NCBI RefSeq assembly: GCF_004010195.1
Contig: NC_057719.1
Location: forward strand, 29,756,419-29,820,418
Reading direction: 5' to 3'
DNA: 64,000 bases
DNA from: Chiloscyllium plagiosum
Taxonomy: Eukaryota
The position numbers and the translations under genes were made by a program. Positions 912-52,937 of the stretch are shown in pieces. Each line of letters starts with the position of its first letter. The first letter of the stretch is position 1. The notes under the pieces were generated by a model. It saw only the letters and a list, made by a program, of their open reading frames with translations. It was not told where the DNA came from and made no database searches.

Positions 912-2433
912 TGTTGTAGCAACCCATGACTAAAGTTGAGAAGATGGCAGCCTGGGGCTTTTTTAGTTGACACAAGATGGCTGAAAGGGGGTTGACAGCC
1001 TACATACAGATGTTCACAGCTAGACCCATGGTGTCCTCATAGAGATACTGGATAAGATGAGATTCTCCGTAGGGATAAAAATTAGGAAAATCAATCAGGT
1101 TTCTGTAAACAGGCAGTTCTAAATATAAGCATTTTAACAAGGAACAGTTTTGAAAGGCCTAGTTTAGCCGCAGTTTCAAGTTTGTAATTTAGAAAAAAGT
1201 AGAAGAAAACATCTGATCTCTCAGTATTCTGAATTCATTAGGTAATTGTAGAATTGGAAAGGCAAAATAGTATGAAAAGGTTAGTTGGATTCTTTGAGCA
1301 AATCTTTGTAGGCAGTGCATTATTATGAAAGATACAGTAATAATAGATGGTGTAAACACAACCTTAAAAAAACCATTGGCACAGGAGGAGAGCAGAGGAA
1401 GATTGTAAAAAGAGAGAGGTCACAACTAGGGAGAGATAAAAAAAATTGAAACAATGCATATGTAGATAACTTGAACAAATTCTTACATCCAAAGATCAAG
1501 GATAAGTGACAAAGCCAAATTACAACATACAGAGAGTGAAGATGTGGCTATGTGGTTATTTGTGGAATCTAAACAAGTTTTGTTTAAAGACTTCATAAAG
1601 CTGTAAAGTGATTGAATTTTACCCTTGTCAGTGGAATTTGATTAGATGTTTTTGGATGTAAGTTTGCTCACTGAGCTGGGAGGTTCATTTTCAGATGTGC
1701 ACTATGATACTAGGCAACATCATCAGTGAGTCTCCAGTGAAGCATTAGTGCTGTGACCCGCTTTTATTAAAAGATGATTAGTAATGGAAAGTGTTCTGCA
1801 GCTACAGTGAGAAAGGGGTTGTTTTCAATTTGTCAGTCATATCACAGAATTGTAGTAACTTTATTATTTGAGTTGATTTTAAGGACTTCATAACAATTGG
1901 TAGAATTTAATATCCTTCCTAATATCCCACACTAAAATTAGTATAGAAGAGTTCTTAGTGAGGAGCAAGTATTTACGTTATTGGTAAACAATGCAATGCA
2001 GCTGGCAAATGTCTGGGAAGGAATAAAACTGTCAGAAGCATTGCAAGATTCCAGAAACTGACGACAGAGGTATCTGGGAAACATCATAAGATTATGGGAG
2101 GACCTGGGCTGTCCATAGATTTACTTATCATTGATTGTGTGTTTGCTGGATTGAATGTATAGGGTGATGTCGTTAACAATGACATCCATGTTGCATGTAA
2201 TTATTGTAACGTGAAAGGTATAAAAATATTGTATTCAGCTGGTGAACACAGTTTCATTGAAATTCTTCCGATCTGAATCATAATTAAGAGGGCAATTGAG
2301 CCCTATAGGAAAGCCAGATTTAGGGTGGTCTCTGGTCTCTCCCACGTATGTGGTAGAAGAGCTCTCAATAAAAGTCGCTTTTACTACGGAACACAGAACT
2401 CAAGACTCTTCTTTGACATTTCTCCCTCCAACA
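912..2433 (+). mobile_element. Putative 5' LTR (~1.5 kb) of a retrovirus-like element
   Basis: TGTTG at 912 and CAACA at 2429-2433, AATAAA near 2368, followed after 2 nt by a TGG-starting PBS and gag-pro remnants; the 5' boundary is inferred only from the terminal inverted pentamer. Confidence 0.5.
1640..1770 (-). mobile_element. Decayed Penelope-like terminal fragment with a degenerate hammerhead, nested in the LTR
   Basis: Similar to 30263-30370; minus strand reads TCA-CTGATGA...ACATC-TGA but the GAAA box is lost. Confidence 0.5.
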
Positions 2434-2435
2434 AC

Positions 2436-2453
2436 TGGCGCTACAAGTAGGGT
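2436..2453 (+). promoter_or_regulatory. Primer binding site, most like tRNA-Ser (degenerate)
   Basis: TGGCGCTACAAGTAGGGT 2 nt after LTR end CA; resembles the tRNA-Ser complement TGGCGCTGTGAGCAGG. Confidence 0.55.
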
Positions 2454-2627
2454 GATGTACCGGTCTGTAATTGGCTATGTGGACTCTAATTGGGTGAATG
2501 TCTTTAATATTACCAACCTTTAGGTAGATGGTAAACCTTGTAGTCGATCCCGGCTGTAAGTTGTAATAGGAAAGGAATTAAAAGGAGAAGGGGGTTGTAC
2601 TGTGTTCAGTAGACAATTGATAGATCT

Positions 2628-2778
2628 AGTCCACACAGGGGACGGTTGAGCCCCACAGCAGGATGGGCAAGGCCCAAAGACAGTCCACAGCCGAGACTGT
2701 TGAGCTCCATAGCAGGATGGCTAAGGCCTGAGCAGCATCCAAACTGGGAATGTGTTGAGCCCACAGAAGGATGCCTAG
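2628..2778 (+). repeat. Three imperfect ~54 bp tandem units in the proviral leader
   Basis: Recurring GTCCAC...GTTGAGC(C)CCACAGCAGGATGG(G)C(T)AAGG units. Confidence 0.7.
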
Positions 2779-2799
2779 GTGGAAAAGTGCACAAAGGGA

Positions 2800-11282: not shown

Positions 11283-13140
11283 AGTCAGAGTGATAGAGAT
11301 GTACAGCACGGAAACAGACCCTTCGGTCCAACTTATCCAAGCCGACCAGATATCCCAACTAATCCAGCCCCACTTGCCAGCACCCGGCCTATATCCCTAT
11401 AAACCCTTCCTATTCATATACCCATCCAGATGCCTTTTAAATGTTGCAATTGTACCAGGCTCCACCACTTCCTCTAGCAGCTCATTCCATACACGCACAA
11501 CCTTAAATCTTTTTTATATCTTTCCACTCTCACCCTAAACCTATGCCCTCTAATTCTGGACTCCCCCACCCCAGAGAAAATACTTTGTCTATTTATCCTA
11601 TCCCCTGCCCCTCACGATTTTATAAACCTCTACAAGGTCACCCCATAGCCTCCAACACTCCAGTGCAAACAGCCCCAGCCTATTCAACTTCTCCCAAAGC
11701 TCAAATCTTCCAACCCTGGCCACATGCTTGTAAATCTTTTCTTTCAAGTTTCACAATGTCCTTCCAACAGGAAGGAGACCAGAATTGCATGCAATTTTCC
11801 AAATGTGACCTGTACAGCTACAACCTGACCTCCCAACTCCTATACTCAATACTCTAACTAATAAAGGAAAGCATATCAAACGCCTTCTTCAGGTACTGGG
11901 GATTTAGCCACTTTTATGCGTTTCAAGACATCCAGCACTTTCTACTCTGTAATATGGACATTTTTCAAGATATCACCATCTATTTCCCTACATTCTATAT
12001 CTTCCATGTCCTTCTCCACAGTGAACACTAATACGAAATACTTATTTAGTACCTCCCCCATCTCCTGCGGCTCTACACAAAGGCCACCTTGCTGATCTTT
12101 GAGGGGAGTGTGTGGTGATGTAAGAGCACAACAGATCAGGCAGCATCCGAGGTGCAGGACTGTCGAGGTTTCGGGCAAAAGCCCTTCACCAGGAATCTGC
12201 AGTCCTCACTTTCGCCTAGTTGATCTTTGAGGGGCCCTATTCTCTCCCTAGTTACTCTTTTATCCTTAATGTATTTGTAAAAACCCTTTGGATATTCCTT
12301 AACCTTATTTGCCAAAGCTATCTCATGTCCCATTTTTGCCCTCTTGATTTCCCTCTTAAGTATACTCCTCCTGCCTTTTTACTTTAATGATTTTCTCAAT
12401 CTACTATGACATATGCTTCCTTCTTTTTCTTAACCAAACCCTCAATTTCTTTAGTCATCCAGCATTCTCTAAACCTACCAGCCTTTCCTTTCACCCTAAC
12501 AGGGATTATACTGTCTCTGGACTCTCATTACCTCATTTCTGAAGGCTTCCCATTTTCCAGCCGTCCCTTTACCTGCAAAACATCTGCCCCCAATCAGCTT
12601 TTGAAAATTCTTGCCTAATACCATCAAAATTGACCTTTCTACAATTTAGAACTTCAGCTTTTAGATCTGGTCTATCCTTTTCCATCACTATTTTAACACT
12701 AATAGAATTATGGTCGATGGTCCAAAATGCTCCCCCACTGACACCGCAGTCTGCCTTATTTCCCAAGAGTAGGTCAAGTTTTGCACCCTCTCTAGAAGGT
12801 ACATCCACATACTGAGTCAGAAAATTTTCTTGTACACACTTAAATTCCTCTCCACCTAAACCCTGAACACTATGGCAGTCCCAGTCTATGTTTGGAAAGT
12901 TAAAATCTCCTATCACAATCACACTATTATTCTCCAAGTAACTGAAATCTCCTTACAAATTTGTTTCTCAATTTCCCACTGACTATTAGGGGGGTCTATA
13001 ATATAACTCCAATAAGGTGATCATCCATTTCTTATTTCTCAATTCCACCCAAATAACTTTCCTGGACATACTTACGGGAATAACCTCCCCAATACAGCTG
13101 TAACGCTATCCCTTATCAAAAATGCCACTCTTGCCACTCC
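11283..13140 (-). mobile_element. CR1 LINE with internal deletion (APE, linker, 3' end)
   Basis: VIGDFNFPNIDW, LDLLLGN, SDHN-like motif, FYKYIKDKRVTRERIGPLKD; CR1 tail at 11285-11340. Confidence 0.92.
12107..12220 (-). mobile_element. Short hammerhead-headed Penelope-derived element (family A), internally inverted, inserted in CR1
   Basis: 14 bp TSD TGATCTTTGAGGGG at 12093-12106 and 12221-12234; 12107-12196 is minus (CTGGTGA-AGGGCTTTTGCCC-GAAACCTC, core mutated), about 12195-12220 is the plus-oriented 3' end. Confidence 0.85.
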
Positions 13141-16388: not shown

Positions 16389-16513
16389 CCCTGATGATGG
16401 GTTATGCCCAAAACAAGAGTCCTTTGCTCCTCAGATGCTGCCTGACCTGCTGTGCCTTTTCCAGCGCCACACTTTATCGACACTAACTCTTCAGCATCTG
16501 TCGTCCTATCTCC
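16389..16513 (+). mobile_element. Short hammerhead-headed element (family A), degenerate ribozyme
   Basis: 12 bp TSD TAAATGCTGAAG (16377-16388, 16514-16525); begins CC-CTGATGA-TGGGTTATGCCC-AAAAC (GAAA mutated). Confidence 0.8.
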
Positions 16514-16977: not shown

Positions 16978-17139
<162 letters not shown>

Positions 17140-22332: not shown

Positions 22333-22995
22333 TGAATGACGGTTTTAGCACAGTCAAATTGAGGTAGAGTTAAAATCAGGCCTCCAGATTACAGAGGTGG
22401 TAGTAAGCGATCTTACTGATCAGCTAGAAATATGATTAGGATATGTGATCAGACACACCACTCATAGACTAAATCATTAGCATGGTTTTTCTTAGCACAC
22501 ACTAACAGATCAGCTGAGTATCAAACATTTTATGTTTTATTTCAAATTTCCAGTGTCTGCAGTAAATCATTTTATAGCTCAGAAGGAGAGGGGAGATGAT
22601 GAGGGTATCAGTGAAAGTGTCTTTGATACTCTATATCTTTCCTGTGATTTTAGAAATGTAAGGTTCATAATTATTCAAAGTAAAGTAATTGGCAATATCT
22701 TGGGATTGCAATAAGATTAAACAATAATGCACCAAAATTATGATGTTATTTTCTCCAAAGCAAATTGTAGGTTCTGAAAACATTGCAGTCTGTAATTTTA
22801 TTAAATCTTTGGTTATTTACATAAAAATGTAATTTACTGATATTGTACTACATTACAATCAATATAATTTCAAATCTAAAGAAAATTCAGTATTTTATTA
22901 GGAGTATTTGACATGCCTTGAACAAAATAAACTATTCAGAAAAGCATCATACTCAAGAGTATTCATTTTTACTTCTCCCAAAATACATAACTCAC

Positions 22996-25789: not shown

Positions 25790-28298
25790 ACAGTCAGACG
25801 TTTCTGCGGCCAGCAGCAAAAAATCAGAATGGTGTGTTGCTTCCCAGGTGCCCAGGTCAAGGATGTCTCAGAGAGGGTGCAGAATGTTCTTAAGGGGGGA
25901 GAGGGACCAGCAGGAGGTCATTGTAAACATTGGAACCAATGACATAAGAAGGGAAAAGGATGAGATTCTGAAGGGAGAATATACAGAGTTAGGTAGGAAT
26001 TTAGAAAGGAGATCCAGTGCTGTGAGGGTAGGAATAGAAAAATAGAGCAGATGAATGCAAGGCTGAGGTGCTGGTGTATGGGAGAAGGATTCACATTTTT
26101 GTATCATTGGAATCTCTTCTGGGGTCAAAGTAACCTGTACAAGGACGGATTGCACCTGAATTGGAAGGGGACTAATGAACTGGCAGGGAGATTTGCTAGA
26201 GCTGCCTGGTGAATTTAAACTAGTAAGGGCTGTAGGGGACCCAGGGAGATAGTGAGAAAAGAGATCAATCGGAGACTGGTGCAATTGAGAACAGAAGCAA
26301 GTCAAACAGTCAGGGCAGGCAGGGACAAAGCAGAGAACAAGGTAGGACTGATAAATTGTTGCATTTATTTCAATGCAAGAGGCCTAACAGGTAAGGCAGA
26401 TGAACTCAGGGCATGGTTAGGAACACAGGACTGGGATATCATAGCAGTTACAGAAACGTGGCTCAGGGATGGACAGGACTGGCAGTTTAACATTCCAGGA
26501 TATAAATGCTACAGGAAGGACAGAAAGGAAGGCAAGAAAGAAAGGAAGAGTTGTGTTTGTGATAAGGGAGAGCATTACAGTTGTACTGAGGGAGCATATT
26601 CCTGGAAATCATCCAGGGAAGTTATTTGGGTGGAACTGAGAAATAAGAAAGGGATGATCACCTTATGGGATTGTATTATAAACCCCCTAATAGTCAGAGG
26701 GAAATTGAGAAACAGATTCGTAAGGAGGTCGCAGTTATCTGTAAAAATAATAGGGTGGTTATGGTAGCAGATTTTAACTTTCCAAACATAGACTGGGACT
26801 GCCATGTGTTAAGGGTTTAGATGGAGAGGAATTTGTTAAGCGTGTACAAGAAAAATTTCTGATTCAAAATATGGATGTACTGACTAAAGGAGGTACAAAA
26901 CCGGACCTCCCTCTTGGAAAATAAGGCAGGGCAGGTGACTGAGGTGTCAGTGGGAGAGCACTTTGGGGTCAGCGACCATAATTCTACTAGTTTTAAAATA
27001 GTGATGGAAAAGGATAGACTGGATCTAAAAGTTGAAGTTCTAAATTGGAGGAATGCTTATTTTGACGGTATTAGGCAAGAACTTTCAAAAGCTGACTGTG
27101 GGCAGATGTTCGCAGGTAAAGGGACGGCTAGAAAATGGGAAACCTTCAGAAATGAGATAACCAGAGTCCAGATACAGTATATTCCTGTTAGGGTGAAAGG
27201 AAAGGCTAGTAGGTGTAGGGAATGCTGGATGAAGGGCTTTTGCCCGGAACGTCGACTTTCCTGCTCCTCGGAGGCTGCCTGACCGGCTGTGTTTTTCCAG
27301 CACCACTCTAATCTAGAGTCTGATTTCCAGCATCTGCAGTCCTCACTTTTGTCTAAAGAAAGTGAAGGTTTGGTTAAGAAAAATAAGGAAGCATATGTCA
27401 GGTATAGACAATATAGATCGAATCAATTGTTAGAAGAGTACAAAGGCAGGAGGAGTATACGCAAGTGGGAAAACAGGAGGATAAAAAGGGGACATGAGAT
27501 AGCTTTGGCAAATAGAGTTAAGGAAAATCTAAAGGGCTTTTACAATAACATTAAGGACAAAAGGGTAACTAGGGAGAGAATAGGACTTCTCAAAAAATCA
27601 GACAGCCTTAGTATGAGGCCGCAGGATATAGGGGAGATACTAAACAAATATTTTGCATCAGTGTTTACTGTGGAAAAGGACATGGAAGATATAGAATGTA
27701 GGGAAATAAATGGTGAAATCTTGAAAAATGTTCATATTACAGAGGAGAAAGTCCACTTTTGGATTAGGCCACTTTTGGAATATTGCGTGCAATTCTGATC
27801 TTCCTGTCGGAAGGACGTTGTGAAACTTGGAAGGGTTCAGAAAAGATTTACAAGGATGTTACCAAGATTAGGTTGAATAGGTTGGGGCTGTTTTCCCTGG
27901 AGCGTAGGAGGCTGAGGGCCAAGACCTTATAGAGGTTTATAAAATCATGAGGGGCATGGATAGGATAAACAGGAAAAGTCTGTTCCCTGGGTTGGGGGAG
28001 TTCAGAACTAGAGGGCATAGGTTTAAGGTGAGAGGGAAAATATATAAAAGAGACCCAAGGGTCAACTTTTTCACACAGAGGGTGGTATGTGTATGGAATG
28101 AGCTGCCAGAGGAAGTGGTGGAGGCTAGTACAATTGCAACATTTAAAAGGCATCTGGATGGCTATATGAATAGGAATGGTTTGAAGGGATATAGGTCAGG
28201 TGCTGGCAGGTGGGACTAGATTCGGCTGGAATATCTGGTCGGCATGGACGAGTTGGACTGAAGATTCTGTTTCTGTGCTGCACATTTCTATGGCTCTA
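25790..28298 (+). mobile_element. CR1 LINE (ORF1 esterase, APE, 3' end) with the RT core deleted near 27755
   Basis: VNIGTND, YFNARGL, ETWL, SDHN; jumps from HITEEKV to RPLLEYCVQF. Confidence 0.9.
27229..27352 (+). mobile_element. Short hammerhead-headed element (family A) inserted in CR1
   Basis: GATGA-AGGGCTTTTGCCC-GGAACGTC...CATCTGCAGTCCTCACTTTTG interrupts CR1 TGCTGGATGA|CTAAAGAA; joined by microhomology, no clear TSD. Confidence 0.8.
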
Positions 28299-28540
28299 AG
28301 TAACTAAAAACAATTCACTGAAATGACATCAAAAACTATTAATAATACTGGAAATACAGATTCTCAGAATTATCTTGCAGAAAGAGGTTATTCAGCTCAT
28401 TGTTCTTGCGTTGCCTCTTCCAACACACCTAGTGCCAATCCCCTGCTTTTCTCCTTGCAGACTATTTCTATCCAAATAATCAGAATAAAGGTGACACCCT
28501 AGGTCAGACATTCCATTTTCTGATCAACATTACGTATTAC

Positions 28541-29150
28541 AGGAAAACCGATGTTTCGGGCAAAAACCCTTCATCAGGAATGGAGGCAGGGAGCCTCCAG
28601 GGTGGAGAGATAAATGGGGGGGTGGGGCTGGGGAGAAGGTAGCAAAGAGTACAAGAGGTGAAGGGGGGTGGGGATGGAGGTAATAGGTCAGAGAGGAGGA
28701 TGGAGTGGATAGGTGGGAAGGGAGATTGGCAGGTAGGACAGGTCATGAAGACAGTGCTGGGCTGGAAGTTTGGAACTGGGGTAAGGTGGGGGGAGGGGAA
28801 ATGAGGAAACTGGTGACATCCACATTGATGCCCTGGGGTTGAAGTGTTCCGAGGCGGAAGATGAGGNNNNNNNNNNNNNNNNCTACCTTCCCTCACCCTC
28901 CTCTCTGACCTATCACCTCCATCCCCACCTCCATTCACCTACTGTACTCTTTGATACCTTCTCTCTCCCTCTTCCCCCCCACCTCCATTTATCTTTCCAC
29001 CCTGAAGGCTCCCTGCCTCCATTCCTGATCAAGAGCTTTTGCCAGAAACATCAATCCTGCTCCTCGGATACTGCCTGACCTGCTGTGCTTTTCCAGCACC
29101 ACTCTAATCTAAACTCTGGTTTCCAGCATCTGCAGTCCTCACTTTTGCCT
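28541..29150. mobile_element. Inverted (fold-back) Penelope-like insertion, family A, with a hammerhead motif in each arm; assembly gap at centre
   Basis: Minus arm 28541-28866, Ns at 28867-28882, plus arm 28883-29150; TSD ATTACGTATTAC (28529-28540) / ATTACATATTAC (29151-29162). Confidence 0.85.
28545..28581 (-). ncRNA. Minimal hammerhead motif, core boxes intact, stem III altered (ACAU)
   Basis: Minus strand TTC-CTGATGA-A-GGGTTTTTGCCC-GAAA-CATC-GG. Confidence 0.65.
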
Positions 29151-30032
29151 ATTACATATTACCAGTAAATATTACATACAAACATTACAGTGCAGTACAG
29201 GCCCTTCAGCCCTCAATGTTGCGCCGACCTGTCATACCAATCTGAAGCCCAACTAACCTACACTATTCCATGTACATCCATATGCTTGTCCAATTACAGT
29301 TCAGCTTTCTTCAGAAATTGGAGAGTTTGGCATTCACTAACATTGAATACAGTGTCCTGTATCATAGGGCATAGATTGTGGCTTGCTAAAAGTGCAAGGT
29401 TCAAAATGTTCAAACCTGTAAACAAAGTTGACTAATTAAGGAGATGTTTTGTGTCTCAGAGCTGGTAGGTGGCCAACAGTGTGTGCCTGTCTGTTTGTAT
29501 GTATGCACCTGTGTGAGTGTGATTGAGAGAGAGATTGTTATGATCATTGGTATTTCATCAGTTGTTGGTCTTCCATCATGTGAGGAGACAACAGGTATCT
29601 CTATACTCTTTGGAATTGAGAACACTCTGCAAAGACTATGGCTCCCAGCCCGGAATGAAGAGTTATCAGTCTCCCCATTGGTTGGTAGCTCTTTGAGGTG
29701 CATTATTGCTCCAATGCCAGATTCATGTAAAATCCACCCGAGACTCCCAGAACCGGCCAAGGATGTAATTGGCCTCAACTCAGATTGGCTAATAAACAGG
29801 GCCTCTCCTTCCCATAAAAACACCAGCTGGTAATTTTGGAATGTTTGTAGTTATATAGTTTTCAAATCTGGACAGCCCAATGAATGTCACCATTTCTTTA
29901 TAAACCATGACAAATACATTAAAATAATGAATAAAGTCAAATTCTTCAGGAGAAAATGGATAAGTTTCAATTAACCATTATTTATTAGTTCCAGATCAAT
30001 GATTTAACAATAATACAAAGGGTTATACTTAC

Positions 30033-30089: not shown

Positions 30090-30298
30090 TTGGTAACTTA
30101 CATGCAAATTAACCACTACAAAAAAAAGCAGCATGGCAAAAATAAAACAATTTTTGCTTAAGATATTGTAGCAGTTGAATATTATTTAAATAAAGTAAAA
30201 ATCCTTACAAATTAGCTCAGATTCTCAAAGTTTATGTGAAGATTTGTAGCTCGGGTGCTCGTTGTTGTAGTTGTGTTCGCCGAGCTGGGAATTTGTGT

Positions 30299-30340
30299 TG
30301 TAGACGTTTTGTCCCCTGTCTAGGTAACATTCTCAGTGCT
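30299..30340 (-). ncRNA. Inactivated hammerhead motif in the left arm
   Basis: Minus strand GCA-CTGAGAA-TGTTACCTAGACAGGGGAC-AAAA-CGTC-TAC; both conserved boxes mutated. Confidence 0.6.
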
Positions 30341-31344
30341 TGGGAGCCTCCTGTGAAGCGCTTCTGTGATCTTTCCTCCGGCATTTATAGTGGTTTGAAT
30401 CTGCCGCTTCCGGTTGTCAGTTCCAGCTGTCCACTGCAGTGGCCGGTATATTGGGTCCAGGTCGATGTGCTTGTTGATTGAATCAGTGGATGAGTGCCAT
30501 GCCTCTAGGAATTCCCTGGCTGTTCTCTGTTTGGCTTGTCCTATAATAGTAGTGTTGTCCCAGTCAAACTCATGTTGCTTGTCATCTGCGTGTGTGGCTA
30601 CTAAGGATAGCTGGTCATGTCGTTCCTTGGCTAGTTGGTGTTCATGGATGCGGACCGTTAGCTGTCTTCCTGTTTGTCCTAAGGAGTGTTTTGTGCAGTC
30701 CTTGCATGGGATTTTGTATACTACGTTGGTTTTGCTCATGCTGGGTATCGGGTCCTTTGTCCTGGTGATTTGTTGTCTGAGAGTGGCTGTTGGTTTGTGT
30801 GCTGTTATGAGTCCTAGTGGTCGTAGTAGTCTGGCTGTCAGTTCAGAAATGTTCTTGATGTATGGTAAAGTGGCTAGTCCTTTGGTTGTGGCATGTCCTC
30901 ATTCCGTTGTCTTTCCCTGAGGCCACAACCCGATACCCAGCATGAGCAAAACCAACGTAGTATACAAAATCCCATGCAAGGACTGCACAAAATACTACAT
31001 AGGACAAACAGGAAGACAGCTAACGGTCCGCATCCATGAACACCAACTAGCCACGGAACGACACGACCAGCTATCCTTAGTAACCACACATGCATGAGTT
31101 TGACTGGGACATGAGTTTGACTGGGACAACACTACTATTATAGGACAAGCCAAACAGAGAACAGCCAGGGAATTCCTAGAGGCATGGCACTCATCCACTG
31201 ATTCAATCAACAAGCACATCGACCTGGACCCAATATACCGGCCACTGCAGCGGACAGCTGGAACTGACAACCGGAAGCGGCAGATTCAAACCACTATAAA
31301 TGCCGGAAGAAAGATCACAGAAGCGCTTCACAGGAGGCTCCCAA

Positions 31345-31384
31345 GCACTGAGGATGTCACCTAGACAGGGGACGAAACGTCTGC
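31345..31384 (+). ncRNA. Minimal type I hammerhead ribozyme (family C), apparently intact
   Basis: Stem I GCA/TGC, CTGAGGA 31348-31354, stem II GTCACCT/AGGGGAC (one mismatch), GAAA 31374-31377, palindromic ACGT stem III, GUC cleavage after 31381. Confidence 0.85.
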
Positions 31385-34300
31385 AACACAAATTCCCAGC
31401 TCGGCGAACACAACCACAACAGCTCTGATTCTTTTGTTGCACACATGGAAGAAATACATGTGCTTAAAATCAAGGCTGGTTACTGTTCATTGGAGATTTG
31501 AAGAGAGGGAGTCAATAGGATAGTTGATAATCATACGTAACAATATCAATCCACAGCTAGTGAATATTCAAACTATGTAGCAGAGAAAACTCTTCCCCAC
31601 ACAGCTTGATTCTAGTCCCCACTGACCACACCCAAAGTAAATGCTTGGGTTAATCTCTAAACCACTCAATCTCCCTCTGTTAAGGGATCAAAATATAAAT
31701 TTGATGAAATACAGTGGATTATTTCCCATCACCATCTGAAGGGAAATCTGTTCCTGTGGAAATCAAGAGGAGCCCACTGCAAGTTGCACCCTCTTCATTG
31801 TTTCATTTTATCCTTCCATGGGATATGTGCATAACTGGTAGACATTCATTGTCCATTCATGATTGCTTTCAAGGTAGCAGCGATGTGCTGCCTTTTGAAC
31901 CACTGTTGTACATTTGGTGTAGGAACAGTCACAGAATACAGGAAGGGAGATTTGTGATTTTCATTCAAACTTTCTCTGTCTTTGCTCTTATCCTTCTCCA
32001 TCACTTCTCTCCCTCTCTGCTGGTCTTCAATCTCTACTCCACCAGCCATCCTTCAACTATCCTTCTCCCTTCTTGTATTCAATTTGCCCTTCTATTCTTG
32101 TACTATCTTCTCCTGTTCTTTCCTGTCCCCTTCCTATCCTCATCCCTTTCTTCCATCTGCTTCTTTTACATTCTCTTCTCTGTTGTTTACTCAAAGAAGT
32201 TCTGTAAAATTTATCAGACAGTCCTTCCTTTAAAAATCTATACTTGCTCTCTGTAATTACTCGTGTCTTTTTCTGCAGTATTGATTTTGTCCAACATTAA
32301 GCCATAGAAGCTTACCCATGATCAAAGTTAGGCTGGCTGGTTCATAGCTACCTGATGTCTCCCTTTCTGAACCAACTGTTATATTGGCAACCCTCCAACC
32401 TTCTGTCACAACTTTCATATTCAAGAATATTTATGGTCAGAGATTTATTTGCTTTCTCATTTCTCTAATCGTTCTGGGACATGAGCCAAGGGAGTTGATA
32501 CCTTTTCCACTTTCAGCTTTGTCAATTTAAATCACCTTCACTTCCAGTACCCATAATTTCTTCTGCAAAAAAAAAAGAAGTCTCATTTATTATCTCTGAA
32601 AGGTTTTCATCATCCAGAGGATTTCATGTTTCATCTTTCATTGGTTCTTTTCTTCCTTGAACAGTCATTTTAGTGTTACAAATGGGTAACTACAAGTAAA
32701 AGTAATTACAAGTTCTCTGTTCTATTTATCAGATTTTGCTCATACTGTCTCTTAGCTTTCTAGTACTTTTTGGTTTTCTTTTTTTATATAGTTGGCTTGA
32801 TTTTATTTTATATTATTAGCTTCTCAAATACTTCTAAACCAGCAGCAGCTAGGAACTTTCCTGAAAAATACAAACAGTAGAAAAATATATCTTTCATAAA
32901 TTCAGGGAAAATAATCAAAAATATAGTTGCAGGTGTTTAACAGTCACCATGAAAACTGACCTCTTCTGGCTGTAATTTATTATTCATGTGACTCTTCATT
33001 TTCAATGCTAGAAATAATATTTAAGGTAGTTGGAAGTATTTACTTTAAGAAAGCAATCTGTTAGAAGGTTGACTTAGAAAAAGTTGTAAAAGAAACTATG
33101 GGAAAATCTGGTTTTTCCAAAGTCAGGACAAGGCAGCAGGAGTACTCCTAGGAGGAGGACTGCCAGATTGGAAACAGGAATAAATCAATATGAATTCTGA
33201 AGGGCTGTGGCATCCCTGAAGAACAGAATTTACATTTGAGATTTTAAGAAAAGGGAAATCTTGGGTGGGATTAAAGTAAAACTGGATTCAGCCTACACAG
33301 CTATAAAACACTATATTAAGTTAAAACTGCTTACTTTAAAATTTTAACATATGCAATAAAACTTGTTATTATTTAAGAACATGAAAGCTAGTGGTATGGT
33401 TCTCTCAGTTAATTAATGGGCATTCAAAATTTCTCTTTGAACATTAACGATTCCTACCAGGATCCTCACAAGTATTTCTTATAAATTAAAGGTCAAGGCA
33501 AATTTCAAGTTAATAACATAAAAGAAGCTAAGCCAGGTTTCTTCCATTCTCTCCCATCAGTTTCTAATTTAGAACCAGTATACAAACAAATGCTTGGCAT
33601 TAACTCTACCATATGCATCACATAATACTGATCTATAGTTTTACAGTCCTAAAACACACAATGCAAAGTCTATATGTTTTGATTTCCAGGAGAGTTCTAA
33701 GTTGGGACTTTACATTTAAATCTAGGGCAAATGAGAATAAATGTGCTCTCTGTTAGAATTTGCTTGGCTGTAAAAGCTGGGTGTTAATGAGGATCAATAG
33801 AAAGACAAACTGCATTATTGAGAGAAAGGTGACTGATACTTTGAAGACAATCACAGCTGTTGCTATGTTCGCAGTTAAAAAATGCAAAGTCTCTTAAAAG
33901 CTTTCATATGTTATTTACCAAGGTTCCAAGTAGTTGTGCTAAAATGTGCTCCTTTGTTTTTCAGATAGAAGGCTGTTGTGGGTAGATATAGCTAAATCAA
34001 CATTTCTTCTTGCAAACAGGGCTAAAGTATTTTCTGTTGGCATGAAGGGGGAAAGGAAATATTTTTGGAATTAAATTAAAAATATTATAGAAACCCAAGA
34101 ATATTACAGAAGCTTGGTCTTGTAGAGTTTGCAGCTCAGAGAATTCAGGAAGCTCAAAATTAAATGGTAGCCAGGTCTGTAAGTTAAGCAGAGAAAAAAA
34201 GATATCTGTTTATTATGTAAGTGAAAACATACCCAATTCAGTGGCTGAATTCATGGGAGGGGAGGGGGTTGGGTTAAGAGACTGTAAGATTTGCTTAGTT

Positions 34301-40735: not shown

Positions 40736-41373
40736 TGCAATCACAAAAAAATCACTGGAATTGCATCCTACTTCACAGCTTCAGATACAACTTACAATAT
40801 ATTCCAATATTTTGTTCCATTTAACCATCACCACATCCTCATCTATCCCTTCTGGCTCTCATTTCCCAAGGAATTAAAATGTTCATCAAATTTAAAGTAC
40901 TTTTTGCAATCTCACCCCATGCTGTAGCTCCTTTAGGTATAAAATCATGTTGCAATCTCCTCACTTCAGTTTGTTGTTCCTGCAGAGTGTCTAATTTTAA
41001 CTTAGTCTTCCTCTGGTATTCCCTTCCTATCTATTGCCTGCTCTCTATGTTGAAGCCTAATAAAAATCCACATGAACAATCACTTCCTCGAAGTTCAATT
41101 TTTGTTTGGCTGTTCTATTTTACGCACTCTCTCACAGACACTATGTAGGTTCCCGTTGACAAAAGGAAATATAATACTTGCAAATATACAAAGTATATTA
41201 GGTAATATCCTAATTATTCAGTACACAGAAACATTTAAAGTATTGCATAGGTACAAATACATTGAGGTTCTGCTCGATTCATAATAAACGTTTACAGAGG
41301 GATAATAATCTGCAATTATATTACCACATTTGTCCAGTCAGAAAAGTCTTTAAATTGGCGTAACAAATAACTA

Positions 41374-42181
41374 TCAGCGTTCCAGAAAGACCACTCCCTC
41401 CGCGACTCCCTCGTCAGGTCCACACCCCCCACCAACCCAACCTCCACTCCCGGCACCTTCCCCTGCAACCGCAAGAAATGCAAAACTTGCACCCACACCT
41501 CCCCCCTCACTTCTCTCCAAGGCCCCAAGGGATCTCCCATATCCGTCACAAATTCATCTGCACCTCCACACACATAATTTACTGGATCCGCTGCAACCGA
41601 TGTGGCTCCTATACATTGGGGAGACAAGCCACCTACTTGTGGAACGTTTCAGAGAACACCTCTGGGACACCCGCACCAACCAACCCAACCACCCCTTGGC
41701 TGAACACTTTAGCTCCCCCTCCCACTCCGCCAAGGACATGCAGGTCCTTGGCCTCCTCCATCGCCAGACCATGGCAACATGACATCTGGAGGAAGAGCGC
41801 CTCATCTTCCGCCTAGGAACCCTCCAACCACAAACGATGAATGCAGATTTCTCCAGTTTCCTCATTTCCCCTCCTCCCACCTTTTCTCAGTCCCAACCCT
41901 CGGACTCAGCACCACCTTCTTGACCTGCAATCTTCTTCCCGACCTATCACCCTCACCTTGACCTCCTTCCACCTATCGCATTCCCAACACCCCTCCCCCA
42001 AGTCCCTCCTCCCTACCTTTTATCTTAGCCTGCTTGGCACACCCTCCTCATTCCTGAAGAAGGGCTTATGCCCGAAACGTCGATTCTCCTGTTCCTTCGA
42101 TGCTGCCTGACCTGCTGCGCTTTTCCAGCCACACATTTTTCAGCTCTGATCCCCAGCATCTGCAGTCCTCACTTTCTCCTA
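41374..42181 (+). mobile_element. 5'-truncated Penelope-like element (GIY-YIG + pLTR), coding parent of family A
   Basis: FICTSTHIIYWIRCNRCG / LYIGETSHLLVERFREH; 14 bp perfect TSD GTAACAAATAACTA at 41360-41373 and 42182-42195. Confidence 0.92.
42050..42085 (+). ncRNA. Minimal type I hammerhead ribozyme (family A), apparently intact
   Basis: ATTC-CTGAAGA(42054-42060)-A-GGGC TTAT GCCC-GAAA(42074-42077)-CGTC|GATT; cleavage after 42081. Confidence 0.82.
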
Positions 42182-42614
42182 GTAACAAATAACTACTTTA
42201 CCGCAAAAGTATCAGGAAGAAAGAGGGTAGAAGCCACCTTCAAACCAAGTAACATTAGGCGTTTTGAGTTGTTTAAACGAAAATCAAATGTTGACACAAC
42301 TTGACCCATGGCAATGTGGACCAGATCACACCCAGAGACTGGATGAGCCAAGATTTAAAGTGAATGAAATGGCTGGAGCGCGCCGACTCGTGGCTAATGG
42401 GACGGCGGTTTCTATGCCGCTGTCTCATTCACAGAGTCGCCACGGTAGGAAAGGAAGGGACAACAGGCCGGCGATGTCGACCACTCCATGTCTCCAATCC
42501 TCCGCTGCTTCGACAGTCCACATGGAGAAAGTAAAGTTTACAAATATCCTGTCTATCTGTCTGTCAGTCAGTCAGTCAGTCAGTCAGTCAACCGCCTGAT
42601 CTCGAGCTGCTCAC

Positions 42615-42720
42615 CTGTTGCCTCTCCCAGACCAGGTTAGGTATTTTATCTGTTCCCCTGTTTAGAGGCCATTTCGCCGACTGCTCATTCTAGCCGGCTG
42701 CGCGTCTCTGTTGTCCGGGA
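42615..42720 (-). other. LRRC9: Candidate non-coding first exon of LRRC9
   Basis: Non-repeat CpG-rich patch (about 42370-42720); strong minus-strand donor CAG|GTGAGC (intron begins 42614); TSS unknown. Confidence 0.6.
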
Positions 42721-42743
42721 GCCATTTTGGTTTCCATGGAGAA
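42721..42743. promoter_or_regulatory. Candidate RFX X-box plus YY1-like site at the LRRC9 promoter
   Basis: GTTTCCATGGAGAA (42730-42743) vs X-box GTTTCCATGGAAAC; adjacent GCCATTTTG; LRRC9 is a cilia-associated gene. Confidence 0.5.
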
Positions 42744-43061
42744 GGCCATGGGGTTAAAGGTTAAAGGGGCAACAAGCAAAAACCCCTTGCAAAACAAGAA
42801 ACAAAATTTAAGAGTTGGAAATGTGACAGCAAAAAATAAAAGGAGATAATTCGGACATTTTCATCTTAGCATCTCAAGCAAAAATTTTGAGGCAAACACT
42901 TCAGCCGTTGTTTTTCAAATATGAAAGCAGAGACGTACGTGGGCACGTGAATACTGTAGATCTGATGAATCACAAAACTGAAGAAGCTTCAAAAGCCATA
43001 TAACTTTTTAAAAGAAATATACAGTACTCCATTACTGGAATGAAGACTGTGCAAGATTATT

Positions 43062-43330
43062 TTGATTTGGAGGAGCCGGTGTTGGACCGGGTGGACAAAA
43101 TTAAAAATGACACAACACCAGATTATAGTTCAACAGGCTTATTTGGAAGCACTAGCTTTCGAGGCGCTGCTTCTTCGTCAGGTGGTTGTGAAGCAGGACC
43201 ATAAGACACAGAATTTATATCAAAAGATTACAGTGATACAATGACACATTGAAGAAACCTATATTGTTAAGTCTTTGATTTTTTAGAAATGATTTGCTGG
43301 TTTCGGTTCTTTAATATGTACATCCCATAT
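43062..43330 (-). mobile_element. Penelope-like terminal fragment (family B) with hammerhead
   Basis: Reverse complement of 50207-50368, extended further 5'. Confidence 0.8.
43147..43187 (-). ncRNA. Minimal hammerhead (family B), one stem II mismatch
   Basis: Minus strand AACCAC-CTGACGA-A-GAAGC AGC GCCTC-GAAA-GCTA|GTGCTT. Confidence 0.72.
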
Positions 43331-43379
43331 GGGATTTCACTACAGATTATTATTAAAGATCCAAAACCATTATTAATCT

Positions 43380-43902
43380 CATCTATCCTTTTCCATCACT
43401 ACTTTAAAACTAATAGAATTTTGGTCGCTGGCCCCAAAGCGCTCTCCCACTGACACCTGCCTTGCCTTATTTCCCGAGAGTAGGTCAAGTTTTGCACCTT
43501 CTTGAGTAGGTACATCCACATATTGAATTACAAAATTTTCTTGTACACACTTAACAATTCCTCTCCATCTAAACCCTTAACACAATGGCAGTCCCAGTCT
43601 ATGTTTGGAAAGTTAAAATCCCCTACCATAACCACCCTATTATTCTTATAGATAACTGAGATCTCCTTACAAATTTGTTTCCCAATTTTCCTCTGACTAT
43701 TAGGGGGTCTACAGTATAATCCTAATAAAGTGATCATTCCTTTCTTATTTCTCAGTTCCACTCAAATAACTTCCCTGCATATATTTCTGGGAGTGTCCTT
43801 CCTCAATACAGCTGTAATGCTATCCCTGATCAAAAATTGAAATAAATGCAGTTTAATTTATCAGTGTCCTAGCTTGTTTTTGCTTTGTCCCTGCCTGCCC
43901 TG
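43380..43902 (-). mobile_element. CR1 APE-domain fragment
   Basis: LGLYCRPPNS...VGDFNFPNIDW. Confidence 0.88.
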
Positions 43903-44980: not shown

Positions 44981-46287
44981 TTAGAATCCTTCAAATTCAC
45001 TGTCCTCATCACATGCACCACTTAATAAATCATTCCAGTCGTCTGGATCAAGCATATCGTCATATAGATCATCATCTGCAGTCTCAAGGGGATCATCAAT
45101 TGATTTTTCATCACTTCCATCTGACCGTAAATAGCCATCCTCCATACCATTAAAGTAATAGATTTTCCACATTTTTTGAAGGCTTTCACAATAATTTCAG
45201 TTTTCCTCATCTTCCAGGACTCAATAATCCACACACATACAGTTGCAAGTAATGGAGCACGCATGTTGCCACCCTTTGTGAAGCTTTTTTCTCTACTTGC
45301 ATCCAAGTGTTCCATTTCTTCTCTACTAAGTCCTTAAAAAGTTTATTGATGCTAACATCCAGTGTCTGTACCATGCTTGTAAGGCCTCCAGGAATCATTG
45401 CAATGTTAGTATTTTAGCTCAAAAGTTCACTGATAACAGTTTTCACTCTGTGTGATTTGAACATATCCCAAACCAGTAAGCTTTTTGCATTTCTAAGTCC
45501 ACTTGGTTGCATATTCCATTCCTCCCAGTCCAATTCTTGCAGCCACTTTCATCCATTCACCTTTTTTCCAAAGACTAGGACAACAATACCTTTCAGAAAT
45601 TTCTGTTTGGGTGCGCTTTCTGCTTAAAAATCACCATAGGCTTTAACTTTGTTCCATTTGCCACACAACCAAGTGCCACAGTGAATTGACTCCTTTCATG
45701 GCCAGTAGTCTTAACTAAAACTGTTTTTGCACTAATCTTGTCATCAGTTCTGTTCCCTGCCACATTCTGTTCATTGGGATCTTGTTGATATTGCCGATGC
45801 ATGAGAGTCTGCACTCGTTTTTCTTCCGACTTCTGATTACAAAGCAATGGACCTCAATTAACTTGTCATTAGGTTCTGCTGGTAGACATTGGGCAATCTT
45901 GGTTTTCTGTCTGAGCACTAAATCATACCTTTTCATGGACCGACTGCACCATCTAGCACTGGCTTTGAAATCACTGAATCAATCTTTTTTTGCTCCTTTT
46001 TGGCACGAATTCTTATGCTTGGCGAGTCACTATGCTTCCATTCTGACGACACTGAATTACCCAGTTAGCAACCTTTTCTTCTAGTTGTGGCCACTTGTTA
46101 GGCTTTCCTTGGTCGGCATACCTCTGTTTTGGCACAGCTTTTAACTGTGTGGCTTTTCTCCTCCAATCTCGGACATGTTTTTCCAGAAACATAGGCCCTT
46201 GCAGCTACGCTTATTGTTGTTCTTCTCTGCAACCTCAATAAGTTAAAGTTTAAACTGTACTGTATACTCTTTTCTTCATGATGCCAT
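44981..46287 (-). pseudogene. Fragmented pogo DDE transposase
   Basis: MAS*RKEYTVQFKL (Brinker-like HTH), FMKRYDLVLRQKT (CENP-B HTH end), KTTGHERSQFTVAL...GTKLKPMVIFK, IPGGLTSMVQTLDVSINK, IVKAFKKCG, acidic tail ending DSEFEGF. Confidence 0.88.
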
Positions 46288-49696: not shown

Positions 49697-50206
49697 ATTG
49701 CATTTGAATCAGAAATGTGCAAATCGTGCCCTTTAAGACTGCATGCATGGTCAAAAAGAGAGCTCTGAAAAACTATAGTTGACTTATACATCATATACAG
49801 GTATATGAAAATTACAAGATTTGTTTGGCCAAAATAAGGGGTTACTTATATATGAAATCGACCTATATATGAGTATATATGGTAGCTTTGTTATTCAGCT
49901 GATATAAAGGTATAATTCTTACCTGATTATTGTTTACGCTTGGTACAAGCTTCCAATTATGTCTTATTTAATGCTCTGCCCAATGGTATAACTACTGTAA
50001 GAAGATCTATAAGCTACTCCAACCAGCACTTTCTGATTTATGATTTCTTGTCTTCACCCAGACTGATTGTTCTTCTAATTCTAATTCCTGAACATCTGAA
50101 ACAAGATCCTTTCTTACTACTTTAAAATAATCCTTTATTATCAAAGTTACTCCTGCTTGTTTTCCATTCAAAATAATAAATACCCTGGAATATATTGCTC
50201 AACTTT

Positions 50207-50368
50207 TGCTATAAATTCTATGCCTTACAACTGTGCCCTCCACAACCACCTGATGAAGGAGCAGTGCTCCGAAAGCTAGTGCTTCCAATTAAACCTGTTG
50301 GACTATAACCTGGTGTTGTGTGATTTTTAACTTTGTACACCCGAGTCCAACACTGGCATCTCCAAATC
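50207..50368 (+). mobile_element. Short Penelope-derived element (family B) with hammerhead
   Basis: 13 bp TSD ATTGCTCAACTTT (50194-50206) / ATTACTCAACTTT (50369-50381). Confidence 0.85.
50244..50284 (+). ncRNA. Minimal type I hammerhead ribozyme (family B), apparently intact
   Basis: Stem I CAC/GTG (extends AA/TT past a C-C mismatch), CTGATGA 50250-50256, stem II GGAGC/GCTCC, GAAA 50271-50274, palindromic AGCT stem III, CUA cleavage after 50278. Confidence 0.87.
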
Positions 50369-50709
50369 ATTACTCAACTTTGGTCACCTTGCAATCATGT
50401 TGTCATATATCAAACCCACTTATCTCTATTTGGGTCATTAGTTATATTGTTATGAATGCTTTGTAAAGCCTTTAATCTTAATTTTTGAATCACTATTCCT
50501 TGTTTGTACATTATTCATTGACATCTAGTATCTATCCTTGTCTCTTCCCATTCCATTCTCCCTCATTTTATCCAAATCACTTCACTTCTCTATTGTCTTG
50601 ACCTTTCTGTTTAAATTTCAAAATTTCCCTTCTCCTGATTTCTCAACAGTCTCCCGCACAACCCTTTTAATTCAAAACCCTGCCCAGTACCGTAGTTATT
50701 ATGATTCAA

Positions 50710-51050
50710 AGTTGATTAACTCAATTGGTGATCGGCTGGTATATAATGAGAATGATGCCAACAGCACAGGTTCAATTCTTGCACTACTGAGGTTACTGTG
50801 AAGGACTATCCCTCTTAACCCTCCCCTGAGACAACCAGTTGTCTCCCTCGGGGCGATGTGGACTTGTTGGGCCGAAGGGCCTGTTTCCACACTGTAAGTA
50901 ATCTAATCTAATCTAATCTAATCTAATCTTGCACTGCTGAGGTTACTGTGAACGACTATCCCTCTTAACCCTCCCCTGAGACAACCAGTTGTCTCCCTCT
51001 CTCTGATGAGTGATCGGCCCTATACTTCTTTCGGATTGTGGTGACTTTTT
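50710..51050 (+). mobile_element. Old tRNA-derived SINE containing a truncated HE1 tail (50850-50926) flanked by a 73 bp duplication
   Basis: A-box-like TAACTCAATTGG, B-box GGTTCAATTC; 50777-50849 repeated at 50927-50999. Confidence 0.7.
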
Positions 51051-51697
51051 ATGACTCGGCAGGATGCTGAATGCAGCCCAATTGAAGTGGAGCTCATCCC
51101 AACAGAACAGTTCCTTCATCTCCATGTTCTGCTATCAGCCTCCCATGAATCAAGATCACTTATCACACATCACATATGTCACTCCTCAAGCCACACATTA
51201 ATTGCTTGCCCCTATGCATTTTGTAAATGGTCCAGGTAATATTTCAAAAATTGAGGTTTTGAGATTCATGAATTTTAAATTGAACCATAACTCCCTAAAA
51301 TTTTCCAACAGAAAAATATATGTTCTACATATATCATTGGTGATCATGTGGACTTTGACAAACAGATCTTCCCCTTACTTCTTTGGTTTAGACAGTACAT
51401 TTGGATTGGCTCAGGTTTGGAGGGCCAAAGGGTCTGTTCCTGGGCTGTAAATTTTCTTTGTTCTTCTTTATTCTTTAATGCAGTTCTAGCAACAAGGTGA
51501 TGTCTTTCAGACAAGCACTGAATAGAAAACACAATCTTCAGCACTGCTGAAAACAGTACCCAGCCTCTTAATTATATTGTTGCTATCATTACCACATTTT
51601 TTTTATTCTACCTACTGGAATATCATCCTATATGATGGTGAATTTGTCTATCCAGCTGGGAGTCCTTGTTATCATTCACATAGGGAACAAATACTTT

Positions 51698-51794
51698 GGA
51701 TTCTGGATTAGTGGTGCTGGAAGAGCACAGCAATTCAGGCAGCATCCGAGGACAGGCAAAATCGACGTTTCGGGCAAAAGCCCTTCATCAGGAA
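51698..51794 (-). mobile_element. Short hammerhead-headed element (family A)
   Basis: Nearly identical to 52810-52935 over its length; no clear TSD. Confidence 0.85.
51761..51794 (-). ncRNA. Minimal hammerhead (family A), apparently intact
   Basis: Minus strand TTC-CTGATGA-A-GGGCTTTTGCCC-GAAA-CGTC|GAT. Confidence 0.82.
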
Positions 51795-52809
51795 CGGACC
51801 TGTTGACCAAAGCTAAATGGCAATGTTCCTCAATCACTATGTCCAGAATCCCAATATTCATCCTATCGAAAAGATAGGCAGGTGGGCAGAGGAGGTACGG
51901 TTGCCTAGTTGGAAAGAAATAAAATCAAATCAGGAGTAGGAAACGAAGTCAGGCCAGATGGTGTGGAATCTGTTTGGGTAGAATTGAGGAACCGCAAAGA
52001 TAAAAAAAAATCATAATTGGATTTGTGTACAGGCAACCAAACAGTAGTCAGAAGCTGGGGTACAAGATAGACAAGGAGATAGAAAAGATGTGTAGGAGAG
52101 GCAAAGTTACAGTGATCATGGGAAATTCCAGTATGCAGGTGGACTGGGAAAATCATGTTGGTAGTGGATTGCAAGAAAAAGAATTTGTGGAATATCTACA
52201 AGATGGTGTTTTGAAGCAGCTGGTAGTGGAGCCCACCATGGAACAGGCAATACTAGATTTAGTGTTGTGCAATGAGGCAGACTTGATAAGGGAGCTTAAG
52301 CTGAAGAAGCCCTGAGGAGACAGTGATCATAATATGATTGAATTTACTCTGCAATTTGAGAGGGAGAAGAAAGAATCAGAGGTAACGGTATTACAGCTGA
52401 ATAAAGGCAACTACGGAAGCATGAGGGAGGAGCTGGGTAGAATTTACTGGGAGATGAGCCGAGCAGGAAAGACAGTGGAATAGCAATGGCAGCAGCTTTT
52501 GGGAATAAGTCAGGAGAAGAAGAAGAAATTCTTCCCGAATAAAAAGAAGCATGGTACAGGGAGGATGCGGCAACCATGGCTGACTAAGGAAGTCAAGGAT
52601 AGCATAAAAGCAAAAGAGGAAGTATATAATGTGGGGAAGAGCAGTGAGAAACCAGAGGAAGCTTACAAAGACCAACAGAGGGCAATGAAAAAAGAAATAA
52701 GGAGGAAGAAGATTAAATATCAGCTTAAGCTAGCCGGTAATATAAAGGAAGACTGTAGGAGTTTCTTTACATATATATAGGGGAAAAGAGAGGCAAAAGT
52801 AAACATTGG

Positions 52810-52935
52810 ATAAAAACAATGACTGCAGATGCTGAAAACCAGATTCTGGATCAGTGGTGCTGGAAGAGCACAGCAATTCAGGCAGCATCTGAGGACAGGC
52901 AAAATCGACGTTTCGGGCAAAAGCCCTTCATCAGG
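52810..52935 (-). mobile_element. Short hammerhead-headed element (family A), young
   Basis: Perfect 15 bp TSD AAAAGTAAACATTGG at 52795-52809 and 52936-52950. Confidence 0.92.
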
Positions 52936-52937
52936 AA
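52904..52937 (-). ncRNA. Minimal hammerhead (family A), apparently intact
   Basis: Minus strand TTC-CTGATGA(52934-52928)-A-GGGCTTTTGCCC-GAAA-CGTC|GAT. Confidence 0.82.

What the first reader, a model, noticed from the sequence alone, without database searches (positions are those of the whole stretch)
1691..52937. Thirteen minimal hammerhead ribozyme motifs in three families dispersed through one shark locus
Seen: the type I hammerhead layout stemI-CUGANGA-N-stemII-GAAA-stemIII-UH-stemI recurs at about 1691-1730(-), 12160-12196(-), 16391(+), 27229(+), 28545-28581(-), 29025(+), 30299-30340(-), 31345-31384(+), 42050-42085(+), 43147-43187(-), 50244-50284(+), 51761-51794(-) and 52904-52937(-). 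The three families have unrelated stem sequences (A: GGGC/GCCC with ACGU; B: GGAGC/GCUCC with AGCU; C: GUCACCU/AGGGGAC with ACGU) but keep the same core, an extra nt after CUGANGA, and a palindromic 4-nt stem III. That covariation argues for a real RNA fold. Established: Penelope-like elements carry minimal hammerheads thought to cleave as dimers via palindromic stem III. Inference: five copies (31345, 42050, 50244, 51761, 52904) are potentially active, and this density implies a very large genome-wide ribozyme load in sharks that standard repeat annotation does not flag.
Basis: partly seen in the sequence, partly recalled or inferred. Interest (0 to 1): 0.88.

Follow-up and report, generated by a model that had tools for sequence, protein, structure and literature searches.

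The report
Penelope retroelement minimal hammerhead relics
The thirteen motifs are real but are the small self-cutting RNA motifs already known from Penelope-like jumping genes, mostly broken leftovers; the fresh point is that the genome holds about 100,000 intact ones and that the short copies look like DNA copies of the capped, uncut front end of the element's RNA.

Summary
All 13 sites exist and beat chance; five have a complete core, eight are damaged. They are end pieces (pseudo-LTR, hammerhead, tail) of 5'-truncated Penelope-like elements: two families run straight out of a GIY-YIG endonuclease frame in this window. This motif class is published (PMC4209133), and this scan noted it before elsewhere in the same genome. 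The load is large: at least 93,613 exact intact cores and roughly 0.8 million relics, so the window is ordinary for its genome. Copies decay neutrally and nothing shows cleavage: 5' ends show no excess at the scissile bond (2.4% loss over 3 nt, background rate) and RNA reads do not pile there. Instead, in subfamily A2, 63% of copies stop matching within 8 nt upstream of the core, at an initiator-like A; family B starts 30 nt behind a TATA box. Both carry excess G just 5' of that start (56% and 69% of non-consensus bases; 5% and 28% one base further in), as expected from a copied cap. Family B RNA is polyadenylated 30 nt after the cut site. Known kind; the capped run-off reading is likely (0.6) but unproven.

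The parts
1647..1731 (-). Old family C relic; GAAA box lost
12109..12220 (-). Family A relic (A6>G, palindrome broken) with an inverted piece of its own tail at the 5' junction, inserted in a LINE
16389..16507 (+). Family A relic starting at -2, 125-nt insert between 12-bp target-site duplications; core dead
27229..27355 (+). Family A relic truncated inside the first box, inserted in a LINE
28540..28702 (-). Family A copy, boxes intact, palindrome lost, 3'-truncated; left arm of an inverted pair
28894..29154 (+). Family A copy, G8>C; right arm of that inverted pair
30231..30898 (-). Family C, long arm: GIY-YIG endonuclease frame 30320-30898 whose stop codon lies in stem II of the (dead) hammerhead at 30336, then tail
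30928..31421 (+). Family C, inverted arm (95.6% to the long arm over 495 nt); intact hammerhead 31345-31384, predicted cut 31381|31382; an ATG at core position +6 opens a frame through the tail
41374..42181 (+). Family A (A3) 5'-truncated element between 14-bp target-site duplications: frameshifted Cys-linker and GIY-YIG-like frame, pyrimidine-rich 3' UTR, initiator-like TCATTCC, intact hammerhead 42050-42085 (cut 42081|42082), tail
43063..43226 (-). Family B copy; boxes intact, stem II mismatch; family-wide RNA reads carry poly(A) at 43123, 30 nt after the predicted cut
50203..50369 (+). Family B copy with TATAAA upstream, intact hammerhead 50247-50281 (cut 50278|50279), tail, about 13-bp target-site duplication
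51696..51794 (-). Family A (A1) short copy starting at the hammerhead; intact core, cut 51764|51763
52810..52937 (-). Family A (A1) short copy, 124-nt insert between 15-17-bp target-site duplications; intact core, cut 52907|52906; same strand as 51791, 1,143 nt apart

Best explanation
The motifs are the minimal type I hammerheads of endonuclease-positive Penelope-like retroelements (PLEs), left as dead-on-arrival end fragments of three element families (identity 0.95). Shown: linkage to GIY-YIG frames, 5' truncation, target-site duplications, inverted pairs, two 3' ends about 35-40 nt apart, very high copy number, neutral decay, and that copies were made from RNA not cut at the ribozyme. Inferred (0.6): in families A and B the element's promoter lies in the upstream repeat and transcription starts at, or 4-8 nt before, the core, so the hammerhead forms the first 32-37 nt of a capped RNA. 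The element's enzyme primes internally at the tail, 90-130 nt from the cap, and runs off the 5' end, often copying the cap as an extra G. The short cDNA is joined to the target (solo copy) or folds onto a second copy (head-to-head hairpin). The ribozyme is selected only in the master elements, where it probably cuts in a dimer or with the element's protein (from literature); genomic copies are passengers.
For: Family C arm runs out of a 192-aa frame that the atlas places with GIY-YIG clusters (score 0.96, 206 of 256 features; PF01541 on 15-20% of members); family A copy 42054 follows a Cys-linker plus GIY-YIG-like frame inside one TSD-bounded insertion; a like frame lies upstream of family B in L017. 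Counts: 70,570 + 17,124 + 5,919 exact cores, reversed controls 0. A2 5' survival: 13,467 at the core, 9,499 to -4, 7,144 to -5, 4,984 to -8, 4,677 to -12. Across the scissile bond: 51,397 > 50,166 > 48,233, about 0.8% per base on both steps. G at the base before the start: A2 1,322 of 2,355 non-C, B 2,744 of 3,975, genome G 0.21; one base further in, G is 5 and 28 of the first 100 listed; in long B copies G is only 7 of 81 substitutions there. YYANWYY at -6..0 in 21 of 24 long A copies; TATAAA at -38/-40 in 16 of 24 long B copies. Loose ends at 42050 (-4) in RNA reads and contigs; 166 poly(T) loose ends at 43123. Precedents: PMC4209133, PMC11167929, PMC2377424; cap-derived G for L1/SVA in PMC4859970.
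Against: No transcript 5' end was observed directly. About half of the G cases are inverted junctions where the G may come from the opposite arm (21 of 41 A2 matches, 13 of them templated or ambiguous by eye; 27 of 41 B matches). TSD-anchored proof is thin: G outside the duplication in 3 of 7 A2 and 1 clean case of 3 B copies, against A outside in 0 of 3. Family A has no canonical TATA box. Family C shows no start cluster at the hammerhead or at my guessed site -18. Pfam found no family in the endonuclease pieces, the two endonuclease fragments barely align with each other, and the reverse-transcriptase domain was not examined, so clade names rest on recalled motifs.
Confidence: 0.85

Rival explanations
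1. Same elements, but the 5' hot spot is made by the endonuclease cutting the element's own ATT, by reverse-transcriptase arrest, or by microhomology, not by a capped start.
For: The anole PLE protein prefers ATT (PMC11167929) and the family A boundary reads ATT; microhomology with the inverted arm is obvious at many junctions; 31 of 161 family A ends lie at +1..+10, inside the motif.
Against: Family B's boundary has no ATT and lies 30-32 nt behind TATAAA; the G excess appears in two unrelated families at the start base and falls one base further in; 20 of 41 A2 G cases are not inverted.
Confidence: 0.3
2. The intact copies are working ribozymes that cut host or repeat RNA as dimers (for example 51791 with 52934 in one minus-strand transcript).
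For: About 0.1 million intact cores in few sequence classes offer partners; family RNA exists on both strands in run X19; subfamily A2 folds as the hammerhead monomer at minimum energy.
Against: No pile of read ends on the two sites laid and zero depth on the unique flank 42198-43043 (one sample, a 3'-biased library, so weak); no conservation beyond neutral; the five folds lie 2.3-6.2 kcal/mol above the minimum and the 4-mer duplex is -3.1 or -4.5; published activity low.
Confidence: 0.1
3. The short copies are a separate non-autonomous SINE or retrozyme family that multiplies from its own copies.
For: Uniform insert sizes of 92-94 and 125-130 nt with TSDs; one locus (L028) holds tandem family B units; retrozymes derive from pLTRs (10.64898/2026.07.22.740005).
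Against: Short and long copies share the same subfamily sequence; the family B TATA box lies outside the short copies; neighbours are mostly inverted, not tandem.
Confidence: 0.08
4. Long copies arise by an LTR-like jump of the short cDNA from the RNA 5' end to the 3' repeat.
For: Family B 3' ends (priming sites) lie downstream of the poly(A) site seen in RNA, so a polyadenylated RNA lacks them at its 3' end.
Against: No cap-G excess at -9 in long B copies: 7 of 81 against 19 of the first 100 at -10; read-through explains it as well; PMC2377424 argues pLTRs are not made by reverse transcription.
Confidence: 0.12

Closest known systems
Minimal hammerheads (min-HHR) in pLTRs of metazoan PLEs (Cervera & De la Pena 2014, PMC4209133; text parts 1-2 of 4 read)
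   Same: Type I layout, extra base after A9, G10.1-C11.1, palindromic 15-16 region, short stem I, several families per genome, mostly solo copies and nearby inverted pairs.
   Different: Host not among the vertebrates named in the parts read; counts here (>=93,613 exact cores) exceed the about 9,000 for Xenopus tropicalis and 4,000 for coelacanth, with different descriptors; stem I is 2-4 bp here against 4-5 in schistosome.
Poseidon element of Anolis carolinensis (Frangieh et al. 2024, PMC11167929; parts 1-2 of 4 read)
   Same: Two internal priming sites bounding a tail, uncut RNA as template, start codon inside the hammerhead (as in family C), no RNA reads ending at the cut site.
   Different: That work is biochemical on one element; in the parts read it does not map the RNA 5' end or a cap-derived G.
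Drosophila virilis Penelope promoter (Schostak et al. 2008, PMC2377424; passages)
   Same: Transcription starts inside the upstream pseudo-LTR at an initiator, a short way before the hammerhead.
   Different: TATA-less, with a 46-nt exon and an intron before helix I; here the start is inferred to abut helix I and family B has TATAAA.
Animal non-LTR retrozymes (10.64898/2026.07.22.740005; part 1 of 5 and passages)
   Same: PLE-derived, type I hammerhead, found in one chondrichthyan genome.
   Different: Defined as tandem repeats; the window's copies are solo or inverted.

Membership tests
PLE minimal hammerhead (min-HHR) | CUGANGA and GAAA boxes, stem II, UH, stem I | tested here: met
   6 of 13 window sites pass a strict descriptor; shuffles 0.02
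PLE minimal hammerhead (min-HHR) | Extra base after A9, G10.1-C11.1, palindromic 4-mer instead of stem III | tested here: met
   5 of 13 window sites complete; extra base fixed per family
PLE minimal hammerhead (min-HHR) | Located in the terminal repeat of a PLE | tested here: met
   follows GIY-YIG(-like) frames in A, B, C
PLE minimal hammerhead (min-HHR) | Compensatory changes between related families | tested here: inconclusive
   few double-sided changes: C-type pair 3 G-C 53, C-G 2, T-A 1 of 60; A-type pair 3 T-T 48, T-A 8, G-C 4 of 70; sample dominated by young subfamilies
PLE minimal hammerhead (min-HHR) | Self-cleavage as dimer or with protein help | not testable with these tools
   indirect only: no cut-site ends in DNA copies or RNA reads
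Endonuclease-positive PLE | C-terminal GIY-YIG endonuclease | tested here: met
   atlas 0.96 for family C; A and B by motif inspection; Pfam silent on fragments
Endonuclease-positive PLE | Telomerase-like reverse transcriptase in the same frame | not tested
   domain not examined in long copies
Endonuclease-positive PLE | 5' truncation, adjacent inverted copy, optional 30-40-nt tail, TSD | tested here: met
Neptune (A, B) / Poseidon (C) clades | Cys-rich linker before the endonuclease present / absent; RT phylogeny | tested here: inconclusive
   CxxxxCxxC-type linker seen for A, none for C, not seen for B; no tree built
Non-LTR retrozyme | Tandem units each with a hammerhead | tested here: not met
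   window copies solo or inverted; one tandem locus L028 among fetched loci

The most novel reading that the evidence does not exclude
In two unrelated vertebrate PLE families the hammerhead is the 5'-terminal 32-37 nt of a capped transcript, and hundreds of thousands of SINE-sized and hairpin insertions are run-off cDNAs of that uncut 5' end, primed at an internal site downstream of the element's own poly(A) signal. The genome thus records start site, priming sites and the uncut state of the template at base resolution, and points to the ribozyme as a decapping or off switch of the element's RNA rather than a maker of the template's end.
Probability: 0.6. Interest if true: 0.6.

Novelty: new member of a known kind. 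Interest (0 to 1): 0.4.

Why it matters
What PLE hammerheads do is an open question (PMC8557442 calls their function unclear). The proposal that they cut the precursor to make the template predicts copies that begin at the cut site; tens of thousands of young copies here show no such excess. If the capped-start reading holds, it places the ribozyme at the cap, explains the short and hairpin copies, and gives concrete constructs for testing. The count is also roughly ten times the largest vertebrate min-HHR count in the paper read, and family B supplies working poly(A) sites. The individual motifs in this window are ordinary relics.

Tried and rejected
Rfam scan: no hammerhead. Pfam on the endonuclease fragments: nothing. 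Cleavage-made 5' ends: rejected (3 of 161 at +27..+29). Selection on genomic copies: not seen. Start of family C at -18: rejected, 222 non-C, G 16 of first 100. A long sub-subfamily with G before the start: rejected (0 of 41 A2, 2 of 41 B). Cap-G carried into long copies by strand transfer: not seen. Sequencing runs: no RNA holder listed; run X20 laid no reads (no test), X1 and X15 are contigs and cannot show ends or strand. The alignment-based 5' map can misplace subfamilies without a long reference, so the genome-wide A2 counts carry the claim. The systematic sample is 40 stretches from contigs C1-C5 only. Lunse et al. (dimer cleavage) was not available and is known only through its citation in PMC6765202. 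Literature searches for a shark report or for the start-site/cap reading found none; subscription papers, one supplement of PMC4209133 and the bioRxiv supplements were not seen and may hold shark counts.
Full report
Observation. All 13 sites are present, and family profiles find exactly these 13 in the window (8 A, 2 B, 3 C). Seven others have lost a core base, the palindrome or their 5' part; 43181 is borderline. Rfam reports no hammerhead. Positions below are relative to C3 of the core (=0).

What carries them. Family C at 30336(-) directly ends a 192-aa frame that the protein atlas groups with GIY-YIG clusters (0.96; Pfam alone found nothing); its stop codon lies in stem II, and an inverted 495-nt arm carries the intact motif at 31348. 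An ATG at +6 opens a frame through the tail, as described for the anole Poseidon element (PMC11167929). Family A at 42054 ends an 0.8-kb insertion between 14-bp duplications that holds a frameshifted Cys-linker and GIY-YIG-like frame; a similar frame lies upstream of family B in L017. 5' truncation, adjacent inverted copies (56 of 161 family A copies), duplications (14 of 77 examined, control 5 of 229) and two 3' ends about 35 nt apart (inserts of 92-94 and 125-130 nt) are the listed hallmarks of PLE insertions (PMC8557442, passages). The reverse transcriptase was not examined; Neptune-like (A, B) and Poseidon-like (C) are recalled labels.

Load. Window = G000:C10:29756419-29820418 in a 3.56-Gb assembly. 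Exact intact cores: A 70,570, B 17,124, C 5,919; reversed controls 0. In 40 evenly spaced 10-kb stretches (379,539 readable bases, contigs C1-C5) the descriptor hit 19 times (12 palindromic; 0 in 10 shuffles) and the profiles 90 times: about 110,000 palindromic cores (49,000-176,000) and 0.84 million copies (0.67-1.0 million, Poisson, ignoring clustering). The window's 203 per Mb is below the sample's 237. PMC4209133 gives about 9,000 for Xenopus tropicalis and 4,000 for coelacanth with another descriptor.

Selection. Among 81 family A copies that span the core, 47 keep all 11 core positions; G12 is lost in 20, 19 of them G>A at a CpG; non-CpG core identity is 0.96 against a tail median of 0.94 (B 12 of 18, C 10 of 17 intact). 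That is neutral decay. Conservation lies between subfamilies, where tail columns vary and boxes do not; double-sided stem changes are few in my sample.

No sign of cleavage. If cut RNA were the template, copies would begin at +28. Only 3 of 161 family A copies do (13 dropped for edge or N, 9 core-picked left out). Genome-wide, young A2/A3 tails fall from 51,397 to 50,166 over the 3 bases spanning the bond and to 48,233 over the next 5: the same 0.8% per base. Raw RNA reads of run X19 (3,437 laid, about 2% of the run, one sample) on window 40600-43400 show no place where many molecules begin or end, come almost wholly from other copies (95% run on unlike), and leave the unique flank empty. This library is 3'-biased, so it is a weak test. 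For the five intact copies the hammerhead fold lies 2.3-6.2 kcal/mol above the minimum; for subfamily A2 it is the minimum.

Where copies do start. 55 of 161 family A copies start at -7..0 and 31 at +1..+10; 13 of 14 duplication-bounded ones start at -10..+4. For homogeneous subfamily A2, counts fall 13,467 > 9,499 (-4) > 7,144 (-5) > 4,984 (-8) > 4,677 (-12): 63% lost in 8 bases, then 6% in 4. Reads and contigs show loose ends at 42050 = -4 (156 reads; 182 contigs of X15, agreement 0.32). The -4 base is the A of a YYANWYY initiator in 21 of 24 long copies; in family B, TATAAA sits at -38 or -40 in 16 of 24 long copies (both motifs recalled), 30-32 nt before a start at -8. The base before these starts is G in 1,322 of 2,355 non-C cases for A2 (A 816, of which 40 of the first 100 listed are perfect head-to-head palindromes; T or N 217) and 2,744 of 3,975 for B, where about 26% is expected. 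One base further in, G is 5 and 28 of the first 100 listed. It is not a long variant (0 of 41, 2 of 41) nor mutation (7 of 81). An untemplated 5' G is read as a copied cap in L1 and SVA (PMC4859970, passages). Against: about half the G cases are inverted junctions where the other arm may supply the G; G lies outside the duplication in only 3 of 7 A2 and 1 clean case of 3 B copies (A outside in 0 of 3); family C shows no such cluster.

3' processing. 166 reads carry poly(T) loose ends at 43123 (agreement 0.83), i.e. family B sense RNA polyadenylated 30 nt after the cut site, behind AATAAA or ATTAAA (18 of 24 long copies); fetched genomic copies have no A run there. Genomic 3' ends lie further on, so priming sites are available at the 5' repeat of the RNA or in read-through RNA. 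A retrovirus-like jump was tested by looking for cap-G in long copies and not supported.

Mechanism. Promoter in the upstream repeat (published for D. virilis, PMC2377424); capped RNA beginning at the hammerhead (inferred); internal priming at the tail (published, PMC11167929; two 3' ends shown here); run-off to the cap on uncut RNA (uncut shown, cap inferred); joining to the target or to a second copy; neutral decay (shown). The ribozyme's own job is not shown; removal of the capped leader in dimers or with the element's protein is the simplest guess.

Known or new. The motif class and its massive occurrence are in print (PMC4209133; reviews PMC6155905, PMC6765202, passages); one chondrichthyan was screened for tandem retrozymes (10.64898/2026.07.22.740005). 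Searches found no shark count and no start-site/cap analysis, but supplements and subscription papers were only partly visible. This scan reported the motif, the fold-backs and the upstream clustering before on other pieces of this genome; a look-up for the cap and poly(A) points returned nothing. Verdict: new member of a known kind, interest 0.4.

Noticed in passing
window 22995-23230 (-): Probable coding exon of a leucine-rich-repeat gene with a GTGAGT donor (Pfam LRR_4 E 2e-4, below cut-off; weak PDB matches to LRR proteins); resembles LRRC9 from recall. Sites 1726, 12192 and 16391 may be intronic to it.
   Followed up: partly
window 45210-46204 (-): Fragmented Tc5/pogo-type transposase relic (DDE_1, HTH_Tnp_Tc5)
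   Followed up: no
window 57896-59921 (+): Broken LTR-type retrotransposon relic (SCAN-like, zinc knuckle, RVT_1 pieces)
   Followed up: no
window 18640-19251 (+): GDSL esterase-like frame before a LINE endonuclease fragment
   Followed up: no
window 43123 (-): Family B repeat supplies a working poly(A) site; with tens of thousands of copies it may end host transcripts too
   Followed up: partly
G000 contigs C1-C3, e.g. C1:21185367-21185412: Perfect head-to-head palindromes of two A2 hammerheads overlapping at their first bases: 20 pairs among the first 100 matches
   Followed up: partly
   Followed up: no
L028: Tandem family B units about 155 nt apart on both strands, retrozyme-like
   Followed up: no
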